Assembly (NCBI GenBank): GCA_009914755.4
Contig: CP086569.2
Location: 5,728,001 to 5,792,000 of the forward strand
DNA length: 64,000 nucleotides
Direction: 5' to 3'
Source: the human T2T-CHM13v2.0 reference genome, Homo sapiens
The notes under the pieces are model-generated. The model saw nothing but the letters and a program-made list of their open reading frames with translations, had not been told where the DNA came from and made no database searches. This document shows positions 57,694 to 58,600 of this stretch, in pieces. The position numbers and the translations under genes were made by a program. How positions within the stretch are numbered: position 1 is the stretch's first letter; each line of letters begins with the position of its first letter.

Positions 57694-58600
57694 TGTATCC
57701 GGAATTGGTTCCTTCCGGTGGGTTCTTGGTCTCACTCACTTCAAGAATGAAGCCCACTGTGAATGTTACAGTTCTTAAAGATGGTGTGTCTGGAGTTTGT
57801 TCCTTCAGATGTTCAGATGCATCCAGAGTTTCTTCCTTCCAGTGGGTTCCTGGTCTAGCTGACTTCAGTAGTGAAGTGGCAGACCTTCCCAGTTAGTGTT
57901 ACAGCTCTTAAAGGTGGCGCCTCTGGAGTTGTTTGTTCTTCCCAGTACGTTCCTGGTCTCACTGACTTCAGGAATGAAGCCCCAGACTCTTGCAGACCCT
58001 TGCTGTGAGTGTTACAGCTCATAAAGGTAGTGCGGACCCAAAGAGCAAGCAGCAGCAAGATTTATGGTGAAGAGCGAAAGAACAAACAAACCACTTCATT
58101 TAAGGGGACCAGAGTGGATTGCAGCTGCTGGCGCCACTGACCAGCTTTTATTCCCTTATTTTGCCCCGCCCAAGACCTGCTGATTGGTCCATTTTACAGA
58201 GCACTAATTGGTCCATTTTACAGAGTGCTGATTGGTCCATTTTTACAGAGTGCTGATTGGTGCGTTTACAAACCTTTAGCTAGACACAGAGCGCTATCTA
58301 GTGCATTTTTACAGAGTGCTGATTGGTGCGTTTACAAACCTTTAGCTAGACACAGAGTGCTGATTGGTGCGTGTATACCGAGTGCTGATTGGTGCATTTA
58401 CAAACCTCTAGCTAGACAGAAAAGTTCTCCAAGTCTCCACTTGACCCAGGAAGTCCAGCTGGCCTCACTTCTCAATATGGTGGCTTCACTCCTGCTACCA
58501 TTCTACTCTACTAACTTTAAATCTAGCGCTGATCCTCCAGAATGTTTCATATTCTCAAGTGACTGCAGGAGATGCAGTTATCACATGGACTTTCAAGACA
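57694..58600 (+). mobile_element. ERV9 LTR12-family solo LTR (3' boundary uncertain) with a U3 tandem CCAAT-repeat region at ~58170-58420
   Basis: Match to the LTR12 consensus as I recall it: tgtatccggaattggttccttccggtgggttcttggtctcactcacttcaagaatgaagcc…gaatgttacagttcttaaag…gtgttacagctcataaaggtagtgcggacccaaagagcaagcagcagcaagatttatggtgaagagcgaaagaacaaac… It is followed by at least 7 tandem units carrying ctgattggt (CCAAT on the opposite strand), e.g. ctgattggtgcgtttacaaacctttagctagacacagagtg, then …aagttctccaagtctccacttgacccaggaagtccagctggcctcac. Confidence 0.75.

What the first reader, a model, noticed from the sequence alone, without database searches (positions are those of the whole stretch)
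57694..58600. ERV9 LTR12 solo LTR with at least 7 tandem CCAAT-containing repeat units: candidate enhancer/promoter
The element matches the LTR12 (ERV9 LTR) U3/R organisation. It contains a tandem array at about 58170-58420 in which the motif ctgattggt (CCAAT on the complementary strand) recurs at least 7 times, spaced about 25-40 bp apart, several with the tttacaaacctttagctagacacagagtg unit. In characterised ERV9 LTRs, such as the one upstream of the beta-globin LCR and those driving alternative transcripts of genes including TP63 and ZNF80, these repeats bind NF-Y (with GATA and MZF1 partners). They act as enhancers and promoters in erythroid, germline and early embryonic cells, and are de-repressed by HDAC inhibitors. 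The LTR is on the plus strand and would fire rightwards towards the adjacent MaLR LTR and L1 sequence, so it could seed a chimeric or lncRNA transcript. In a bacterial-style scan the repeat array could be mistaken for a CRISPR array.
Basis: partly seen in the sequence, partly recalled or inferred. Interest (0 to 1): 0.5.

Follow-up and report, generated by a model that had tools for sequence, protein, structure and literature searches.

The report
Ordinary ERV9 solo LTR, wrong strand

Summary
The repeat array is real. There are six exact CTGATTGGT copies plus one CTAATTGGT within 58180-58393, against 0.72 expected in the whole 64 kb.

The element is a complete ERV9/LTR12 solo LTR at 57694-58474 (781 bp). 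It has TG...CA ends and a 4-bp ATAT target-site duplication.

The element lies on the minus strand, not the plus strand. The printed Dfam LTR12C consensus aligns only to the minus strand. In three proviral contigs, LTRs read in this sense lie collinear with gag-pro-pol-env. Read on the minus strand, the order is canonical:
- U3 CCAAT repeats
- GC box
- AATAAAA
- start-site motif
- poly(A) signal
- three U5 modules

Any LTR-driven transcript would therefore run leftwards, away from the MaLR LTR.

The copy is the short, older LTR12 type. It lacks the roughly 600-nt GC-rich 5' extension of LTR12C/D/E, the subfamilies the literature ties to promoter co-option. It is also partly decayed:
- start-site palindrome broken
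- AATAAA changed to CATAAA
- MZF1 motif mutated
- GATA cores absent from the repeat units
- one CCAAT box lost

The most likely present state is an NF-Y-bindable but quiescent relic. This is a known kind of element and of low interest.

The parts
57690..57693 (.). Left copy of the 4-bp target-site duplication, ATAT
   Evidence: The sequence is identical to 58475-58478 and lies directly outside the TG...CA termini. Five other independent LTR12 copies show 4-bp duplications at the same termini.
57694..58474 (-). Complete ERV9/LTR12 solo LTR, 781 bp. The sense strand is the window minus strand: 5' TGAGAAGTGAGG ... CCGGATACA 3'.
   Evidence: The LTR probe (window 57694-58476) matches many of the 159 fetched contigs. 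With 400-bp flanks added, no alignment runs more than 4-9 bp past the ends. The printed Dfam LTR12C consensus aligns only here and only to the minus strand. The window holds no ERV9 internal sequence.
57694..58020 (-). U5, with three 'B'-type repeat modules starting at 58020, 57907 and 57774 on the minus strand. Each begins GA(G/A)CTGTAACA.
   Evidence: Repeat families D3 and D5 and module starts. The region is collinear with the three modules of the LTR12C consensus. The review describes U5 B elements.
57734..57742 (-). GAA|GTGAGT, a possible splice-donor-like site in U5, created by copy-specific substitutions
   Evidence: Pattern scan only. The consensus has GAAGTCAG here. This is inference and untested.
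58061..58066 (-). Decayed poly(A) signal in R: CATAAA where the family has AATAAA
   Evidence: Pileup against related copies and alignment to the LTR12C consensus.
58121..58132 (-). Start-site motif GCCAGCAGCTGC. The LTR12C form is GCCAGCAGTGGC and the short-type consensus is GCCAGCAGCGGC. The GCCANNNNTGGC palindrome is broken here.
   Evidence: The motif and its role are described in PMC11853044.
58146..58152 (-). AATAAAA TATA-like box, intact, 20 nt upstream of the start-site motif
   Evidence: The review describes this box.
58163..58171 (-). GC box GGGCGGGGC (Sp1-type), directly upstream of the TATA-like box
   Evidence: The review places an Sp1 site at this position.
58176..58419 (-). U3 enhancer repeat array of 8 units. 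There are 3 long units (two of 41 nt, one of 39 nt) and 5 short units (24-25 nt). Seven CCAAT boxes are intact, six of them CCAATCAG. One unit has decayed, with CACTAGATAG at 58294-58303 in place of its box.
   Evidence: The same alternation of 41-nt and 25-nt units is seen in the closest copies L082, L102, L113, L074 and L086.
58434..58440 (-). Decayed MZF1-type motif: GTGGAGA where the family has GTGGGGA
   Evidence: The motif is described in the review.
58475..58478 (.). Right copy of the 4-bp target-site duplication, ATAT

Best explanation
**What it is.** Window 57694-58474 is a complete 781-bp solo LTR of the primate endogenous retrovirus ERV9 (the LTR12 group), lying on the minus strand.

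**How it arose (inferred from the anatomy).** A provirus integrated and duplicated 4 bp of target DNA (ATAT). Recombination between its two LTRs then removed the internal genes and left one LTR.

**Layout on the minus strand.** The order is the canonical one:
- U3, with eight tandem enhancer units carrying seven intact CCAAT boxes
- a GC box
- an AATAAAA TATA-like box
- the start-site motif
- a short R with a mutated poly(A) signal
- U5, with three repeat modules

**Subfamily.** It belongs to the short, older LTR12 architecture. It has no roughly 600-nt GC-rich 5' extension, and its promoter is of the CCAAATAAGGGAATAAAAGCTGG type.

**Present-day activity (inferred).** The CCAATCAG boxes are good NF-Y sites, each overlapping a small-MAF half-site, so the array can bind NF-Y. 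The GATA and MZF1 partner motifs, the start-site palindrome and the poly(A) signal are absent or decayed. The most likely state is a quiescent or repressed relic, with at most weak, context-dependent enhancer activity. Any cryptic promoter activity would run leftwards, from about 58125 towards 57694 and beyond.
For: **Repeat enrichment and anatomy.**

**Termini and duplication.**. The same termini carry 4-bp duplications in five other independent copies.

**Boundaries.** These were tested against 159 fetched contigs with 400-bp flanks.

**Strand.**
- The Dfam LTR12C consensus printed in PMC11317136 Suppl. Fig. S1 aligns to 57694-58468 on the minus strand only. Identity is 77.7% over 762 columns, and 84.6% from the last CCAAT unit to the 3' end.
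- LTRs in the same sense lie collinear with the retroviral genes in three proviral contigs. In L062 the LTR is followed by Gag_MA (weak, E = 1.6e-5, below Pfam's cut-off), RVP, RVT_1 and RNase H. In L082, RVT_1 and TLV_coat come before the 3' LTR. In L104 the whole arrangement is on the minus strand.
- The review's sense-strand motifs (CCAAT, Sp1 site, AATAAAA about 30 nt before GCCAGCAGTGGC) all read on the minus strand in the right order.

**Solo status.** The window holds no proviral internal sequence.

**Short type.** Consensus positions 1-632 have no match anywhere in the window. Among fetched copies, 0 of 18 with this promoter type carry the extension, against 12 of 15 with the LTR12C promoter type.

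**Decay.** The copy is about 10.5% from a crude group consensus and has 13 CpG against 24.

**Literature prior.**
- 10-60% of LTR12 copies are NF-Y bound, mostly in repressed or quiescent chromatin, and promoter-type marks occur only in LTR12C/D/E (PMC12065363).
- The extension coincides with driving chimeric transcripts (PMC8767690).
Against: - No expression, chromatin or ChIP data can be consulted, so 'quiescent' is a prior-based inference, not an observation.
- Seven intact high-quality CCAAT boxes is at the top of the range (3-8) for short-type copies. The GC box and AATAAAA are also intact. Residual enhancer or cryptic promoter activity is therefore not excluded.
- Only the LTR12C consensus was available, so the exact named subfamily (LTR12, LTR12_, LTR12B or LTR12F) is not fixed.
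- The divergence estimate uses a heterogeneous consensus and is rough.
Confidence: 0.88

Rival explanations
1. This is a plus-strand LTR12 whose U3 repeats drive transcription rightwards into the adjacent MaLR LTR and L1, seeding a chimeric transcript or lncRNA.
For: The motif array and family assignment are right. TG...CA ends look the same on both strands.
Against: - All alignments to the Dfam LTR12C consensus are on the minus strand.
- Proviral contigs fix the sense strand.
- On the plus strand the order would be U5-R-U3, with the TATA-like box and start-site motif pointing the other way.
- Reported antisense U3 RNAs are attributed to read-through of host introns, not to an LTR promoter.
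Confidence: 0.02
2. This is a co-opted regulatory element. The copy would be a working NF-Y-dependent distal enhancer, or a leftward promoter inducible by HDAC or DNMT inhibitors, producing a non-coding or chimeric transcript.
For: - Seven intact CCAAT boxes (six CCAATCAG), an intact GC box and an intact AATAAAA.
- LTR12 copies are frequent NF-Y targets and are induced by HDAC inhibitors.
- A donor-like GAA|GTGAGT lies 393 nt downstream of the start-site motif.
Against: - It lacks the 5' extension that marks the LTR12C/D/E copies driving chimeric transcripts.
- Its start-site palindrome, reported as essential for start-site use, is broken.
- GATA and MZF1 partner motifs are absent or mutated.
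- It sits in an AT-rich (about 35% GC) region with no detectable coding sequence or RNA gene in 64 kb.
- Most NF-Y-bound LTR12 copies lie in repressed or quiescent chromatin.
Confidence: 0.1
3. This is an LTR12C/D/E copy that lost its 5' extension by a later internal deletion, rather than an ancestral short-type LTR12.
For: The extension in LTR12C sits between near-duplicate GGTGA...AGCCAGCTGG motifs, which could mediate deletion. In addition, 3 of 15 LTR12C-promoter-type copies appear to lack it.
Against: - Diagnostic promoter bases are of the short type (CAAAATAAGGGAATAAAAGCTGG against CCAGATAAGAGAATAAAAGCAGG).
- The unit pattern alternating 41 and 25 nt, and the 5'-end variant GGACTTCCTGGGT, match short-type copies L082, L102, L113 and L074.
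- Identity to the LTR12C consensus is only 78-85%.
Confidence: 0.03
4. This is a prokaryotic-style CRISPR array, or a coding repeat.
For: The region has regularly spaced short direct repeats. A 154-aa stop-free frame lies at 58141-58602 on the plus strand.
Against: - The units abut one another with no unique spacers.
- The context is primate DNA with Alus.
- The frame has no Pfam hit.
- The whole element is a member of a retroviral LTR family present in 99 other contigs.
Confidence: 0

Closest known systems
Short-type ERV9 LTRs (the Repbase/Dfam group LTR12, LTR12_, LTR12B and LTR12F, which lack the 5' extension)
   Same: - Length class: 781 bp here, against 500-750 bp in comparable fetched copies.
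- The 5' end TGAGAGGTGA is followed directly by AGCCAGCTGG.
- The promoter is of the CCAAATAAGGGAATAAAAGCTGG type.
- CCAAT units alternate between 41 and 25 nt.
- The closest fetched copies are L082 (91% over 251 nt, the 3' LTR of a provirus), L074 (86% over 471 nt) and L102 (84% over 649 nt).
   Different: This copy has a relatively high number of CCAAT boxes (7, against a range of 3-8) and copy-specific decay in the R region.
LTR12C (Dfam consensus as printed in PMC11317136 Suppl. Fig. S1)
   Same: The two are collinear from consensus position 633 to 1580. This covers the CCAAT repeats, GC box, AATAAAA, start-site motif at the same 20-nt offset, poly(A) signal position, three U5 modules and the terminal CCAATTCCGGA(C/T)ACA.
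   Different: - This copy has no counterpart of consensus positions 1-632. That GC-rich extension is the ZNF676 target and is associated with driving chimeric transcripts.
- The site labelled GATA2, CCAGATAAG, reads CAAAATAAG here.
- The repeat units carry TGTC, not TATC.
- Identity is only 78-85%.
[quoted passage not shown]
   Same: Both have tandem U3 units with CCAAT boxes that bind NF-Y.
   Different: - The globin LTR, which the review calls an LTR12C enhancer, has 14 units of about 40 bp with GATA and CCACC/GTGGGGA motifs.
- This copy has 8 units.
- Its repeat units have no GATA core in the TATC position; the only GATA lies in the decayed unit at 58295-58298.
- Its single MZF1-type motif is mutated.

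Membership tests
ERV9 / LTR12 solo LTR | TG...CA termini flanked by a short (4-bp) target-site duplication | tested here: met
   The element reads 5' TG...CA 3' with ATAT on both sides. Five other independent copies carry 4-bp duplications at the same termini.
ERV9 / LTR12 solo LTR | Sequence homology to a named LTR12 consensus | tested here: met
   The Dfam LTR12C consensus aligns from position 633 to 1580, on the minus strand only, at 77.7-84.6% identity. Only the LTR12C consensus was available.
ERV9 / LTR12 solo LTR | The same sequence flanks gamma-type proviruses, collinear with gag-pro-pol-env | tested here: met
   L062, L082 and L104 carry LTR hits in the same sense as Gag_MA (weak, below Pfam's cut-off), RVP, RVT_1, RNase H and TLV_coat open frames.
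ERV9 / LTR12 solo LTR | U3 tandem 'E' units of about 41 nt carrying CCAAT | tested here: met
   There are 3 long units (39-41 nt) and 5 short units (24-25 nt), with 7 intact CCAAT boxes. The review gives 5-17 units of about 41 nt.
ERV9 / LTR12 solo LTR | Core promoter: Sp1 site, AATAAAA, then the start-site motif GCCAGCAGTGGC about 30 nt downstream | tested here: inconclusive
   The GC box and AATAAAA are intact and correctly spaced. The start-site motif reads GCCAGCAGCTGC, so the palindrome is broken.
ERV9 / LTR12 solo LTR | U5 built of repeated 'B' modules | tested here: met
   Three modules are present, collinear with those of the LTR12C consensus.
ERV9 / LTR12 solo LTR | Solo: no internal ERV9 sequence adjacent | tested here: met
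   Proviral contigs hit the window only within 57688-58476.
ERV9 / LTR12 solo LTR | RepeatMasker/Dfam subfamily call | not testable with these tools
   No Dfam or RepeatMasker is available. The LTR12, LTR12_, LTR12B and LTR12F consensus sequences were not held.
LTR12C/D/E subfamilies | A GC-rich 5' extension of about 600 nt | tested here: not met
   Consensus positions 1-632 and the L018 extension have no match in the window. The feature is defined in PMC8767690.
LTR12C/D/E subfamilies | Promoter-proximal CCAGATAAGAG (labelled GATA2) and GCAGG after AATAAAA | tested here: not met
   The copy reads CAAAATAAGGGAATAAAAGCTGG, the short type.
Active NF-Y/MZF1/GATA-2 LTR12 enhancer or promoter | Multiple high-quality CCAAT boxes | tested here: met
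   Seven boxes lie in 210 bp, six of them CCAATCAG. The optimal 3' CAG is noted in PMC12065363.
Active NF-Y/MZF1/GATA-2 LTR12 enhancer or promoter | GATA motif (TCTGTATCTAGCT) and MZF1 motif (GTGGGGA) in the repeats | tested here: not met
   The units read TCTGTGTCTAGCT. The only MZF1-type motif is GTGGAGA.
Active NF-Y/MZF1/GATA-2 LTR12 enhancer or promoter | NF-Y occupancy, open chromatin, a start site or eRNA, and induction by HDAC inhibitors | not testable with these tools
   This needs ChIP-seq, ATAC, CAGE or RNA-seq at the genomic locus.
CRISPR array | Identical repeats separated by unique spacers of similar length, in a prokaryotic context | tested here: not met
   The units are contiguous with no spacers. 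The window is primate DNA with Alus.

The most novel reading that the evidence does not exclude
This short, extension-less and partly decayed LTR12 copy nevertheless works as an NF-Y-dependent regulatory element. It would be either a distal enhancer or a leftward cryptic promoter, using its intact GC box and AATAAAA and the copy-specific GTGAGT donor in U5. That would show that the old LTR12 layer, not only LTR12C/D/E, contributes functional promoters or enhancers.
Probability: 0.07. Interest if true: 0.3.

Novelty: already known. Interest (0 to 1): 0.07.

Why it matters
It matters little in itself. The element is one of the 4,000-6,000 LTR12 copies in the human genome (PMC11853044), and standard repeat annotation would be expected to recognise a copy of this kind.

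The useful outcomes are corrective:
- The strand is reversed relative to the finding. Any search for LTR-driven transcripts, CAGE tags or chimeric RNAs must look leftwards on the minus strand.
- The right boundary is 58474, not 58600.
- The copy belongs to the older short LTR12 type, which lacks the features the literature links to promoter co-option.

The work also shows that LTR orientation cannot be read from the CCAAT repeats alone.

Tried and rejected
- **Viral-contig scan.** A scan with the CCAAT-unit pattern gave 0 hits.
- **Coding potential.** Eleven mechanical ORFs of at least 110 aa lie in the window. Ten stop-free frames, including the 154-aa frame across the array, were scanned against Pfam. 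The only hit was one insignificant 60KD_IMP match, far below its cut-off. The coding reading is rejected.
- **L1 to the right.** No RT or endonuclease signal appears in frames from 59.2-64 kb, and only patchy repeat hits were found.
- **Structured RNAs.** An Rfam scan of the whole window at gathering thresholds gave 0 matches, and no tRNAs were found. No known structured RNA, such as an LTR-derived miRNA, is present.
- **CRISPR reading.** Rejected, because there are no spacers and the context is eukaryotic.
- **Internal-deletion origin from LTR12C.** Considered and judged unlikely on diagnostic bases.
- **Naming the exact subfamily.** Literature searches yielded only the LTR12C consensus.
- **Identifying the genomic locus or species.** None of the fetched contigs overlaps the flanks.
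- **My own first boundary.** I first set the right end at 58476, which was 2 bp too far. It was corrected to 58474 after re-reading the ruler.

Full report
**Observation**

The array is real and far beyond chance.
- Tandem Repeats Finder reports periods of 24 and 66 over 58178-58418.
- CTGATTGGT occurs six times between 58180 and 58393. Only 0.72 copies are expected in the whole 64-kb window, and none of 100 shuffles reaches the observed count.
- A seventh copy at 58204 is CTAATTGGT and still contains ATTGG.
- An eighth unit has decayed to CACTAGATAG.

The spacings (24, 24, 25, 66, 41, 25) and the long tttacaaacct.tagctagaca units are as described.

**Boundaries**

I fetched 159 contigs from the metagenome and genome collections with a CCAAT-unit pattern. 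Most are human contamination, and 99 of them match the element.

With 400 bp of flank added on each side, no alignment extended more than 4-9 bp past the element, and nothing matched the flanks alone. The element is 57694-58474 (781 bp). It begins TG and ends CA, and it is flanked by ATAT at 57690-57693 and at 58475-58478.

Five other independent copies show 4-bp duplications at exactly the same termini:
- L038/L078: ATAC
- L048: CTAT
- L071: ATTA
- L113: ATAT
- L045: CTTA

A 4-bp duplication is what gamma-type retroviruses make (background knowledge).

**Orientation**

This is the main correction. Three independent lines place the sense strand of the LTR on the window's minus strand.

1. *Published motifs.* The LTR12 review PMC11853044 gives the sense-strand features:
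   - CCAAT boxes
   - the GATA motif TCTGTATCTAGCT
   - the MZF1 motif GTGGGGA
   - an Sp1 site just upstream of AATAAAA
   - the start site in GCCAGCAGTGGC about 30 nt further on
   - then R, and a U5 with repeated B elements

   Those that are present read on the minus strand, in this order. The MZF1 and start-site motifs are mutated, and the GATA motif reads TGTC rather than TATC.

2. *Proviral contigs.*
   - In L062 the LTR in this sense is followed on the same strand by frames hitting RVP, RVT_1 and RNase H. A weak Gag_MA hit (E = 1.6e-5, below Pfam's cut-off) lies there too.
   - In L082, RVT_1 and TLV_coat precede the 3' LTR.
   - In L104 the same arrangement lies on the minus strand.

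3. *Dfam consensus.* The Dfam LTR12C consensus is printed in Suppl. Fig. S1 of PMC11317136. It aligns only to 57694-58468 and only to the minus strand. Identity is 77.7% over 762 columns, and 84.6% from the last CCAAT unit to the 3' end, collinear throughout.

The LTR promoter points leftwards, away from the MaLR LTR. The antisense U3 RNAs described in the literature are attributed to read-through of host introns, not to an LTR promoter.

**Solo status**

Whole proviral contigs hit the window only within 57688-58476. Together with the target-site duplication, this shows a solo LTR. The formation mechanism, integration followed by LTR-LTR recombination, is inferred.

**Which kind of LTR12**

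LTR12C-like copies such as L018 (1584 bp) carry, directly after TGAGAGGTGA, about 620 nt of 73% GC sequence. They have the start-site motif at 73% of their length, which matches the review's figure of 70%. That extension, consensus positions 1-632, has no match anywhere in the window.

The fetched copies fall into two promoter types:
- CCAGATAAGAGAATAAAAGCAGG, the LTR12C-like type
- CCAAATAAGGGAATAAAAGCTGG, the short type

Of copies with a recognisable 5' end, 12 of 15 of the first type have the extension. None of the 18 of the second type has it.

The window copy reads CAAAATAAGGGAATAAAAGCTGG. It also shares the alternation of 41-nt and 25-nt units, and the 5'-end variant GGACTTCCTGGGT, with its closest relatives:
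- L082: 91% over 251 nt
- L074: 86% over 471 nt
- L102: 84% over 649 nt
- L113

It therefore belongs to the short group (LTR12, LTR12_, LTR12B or LTR12F by name). I could not fix the name without those consensus sequences.

PMC8767690 reports that the extension characterises LTR12C/D/E. It coincides with driving chimeric transcripts, is bound by ZNF676, and spread in hominoids about 10 million years after ERV9 first entered the genome more than 30 million years ago.

**State of the regulatory motifs**

| Feature | State in this copy |
|---|---|
| CCAAT boxes | 7 intact, 6 as CCAATCAG (the optimal NF-Y flank, overlapping a small-MAF half-site) |
| GC box GGGCGGGGC | intact |
| AATAAAA | intact, at the consensus 20-nt offset from the start-site motif |
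| Start-site motif | GCCAGCAGCTGC; breaks the GCCANNNNTGGC palindrome reported as essential |
| Poly(A) signal | AATAAA changed to CATAAA |
| MZF1 motif | GTGGGGA changed to GTGGAGA |
| GATA core in repeat units | absent (TGTC instead of TATC) |
| Promoter-proximal GATA2 site of LTR12C | absent |
| One CCAAT unit | lost |

The copy differs by about 10.5% from a crude consensus of short-type copies and keeps 13 CpG against 24 in that consensus. This is consistent with an insertion tens of millions of years old, but it is only a rough inference.

**Likely function**

NF-Y binds 10-60% of LTR12 copies, mostly in repressed, quiescent or unmarked chromatin. Promoter-type marks are confined to LTR12C/D/E (PMC12065363). 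HDAC inhibitors activate LTR12 promoters in an NF-Y-dependent way (PMC5085097).

This copy has the short architecture and decayed promoter and partner motifs. It sits in an AT-rich region (about 35% GC) with no detectable coding sequence or RNA gene in 64 kb. The most likely state is an NF-Y-bindable but transcriptionally quiescent relic.

If it fires at all, transcription starts near 58121-58132 on the minus strand. It then runs through U5, where a copy-specific GAA|GTGAGT lies at 57742-57734. It continues into unique AT-rich DNA, with the first ATTAAA at 57310, and then into an Alu at 57173-56867. These last steps rest on pattern scans only.

**Comparison and novelty**

The element is a member of a thoroughly described family. 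Nothing in its anatomy departs from other short-type LTR12 copies. The classification is 'already known' and the interest is low.

The residual novel reading is that an extension-less old LTR12 is nevertheless a working enhancer or promoter. It cannot be excluded without functional genomics data, and I put it at about 7%.

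Noticed in passing
L136 7080-8000 (CAVXBB010000006.1, a 144,627-bp contig of an 'uncultured Acidobacteriaceae' MAG): A 97.8%-identical human LTR12C, including the GC-rich extension, sits inside a long contig filed as bacterial, next to bacterial-looking open frames. 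This is probably a chimeric assembly.
   Followed up: partly
L131, L139, L141, L147, L148, L154 (genome contigs) and L053 3658-4671 (metagenome): Short, low-coverage contigs in assemblies named Actinacidiphila, Marinobacterium, Actinomadura, Arthrobacter, Pseudomonas and Azonexaceae are human LTR12 DNA, which is contamination. L053 joins a resolvase-like bacterial segment to an LTR12C.
   Followed up: partly
Dfam LTR12C consensus positions 1-2 (PMC11317136 Suppl. Fig. S1) compared with window 58474: The printed consensus starts TG-TGAGAGG, two bases before the TG that target-site duplications mark as the integrated end in this and five other copies. These may be the two bases removed at integration, or an artefact of consensus building.
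   Followed up: partly
window 58840-59221 (+): There is a MaLR-type LTR (TGATATGG...ATACAG; it resembles THE1/MST by recall) 365 bp to the right of the LTR12. Only part of it (59059-59209) matched two fetched contigs. The 'L1' further right was not verified.
   Followed up: partly
window 56867-57173 and 52311-52582: Two Alu elements are present, matched by 15 and 16 contigs. The first has its sense strand on the minus strand, 520 bp downstream of the LTR in the LTR's true direction of transcription.
   Followed up: no
window 58141-58602 (+): A 154-aa stop-free frame (a 126-aa ORF from GTG at 58225) runs across the repeat array and into the flank. It has no Pfam hit and is an artefact of the repeats.
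   Followed up: yes
window 57545-57625 and 58634-58650: Short (TA)n/(ATAT)n-rich tracts lie in the flanks on both sides of the LTR. The insertion went into AT-rich DNA, and its target-site duplication is itself ATAT.
   Followed up: no
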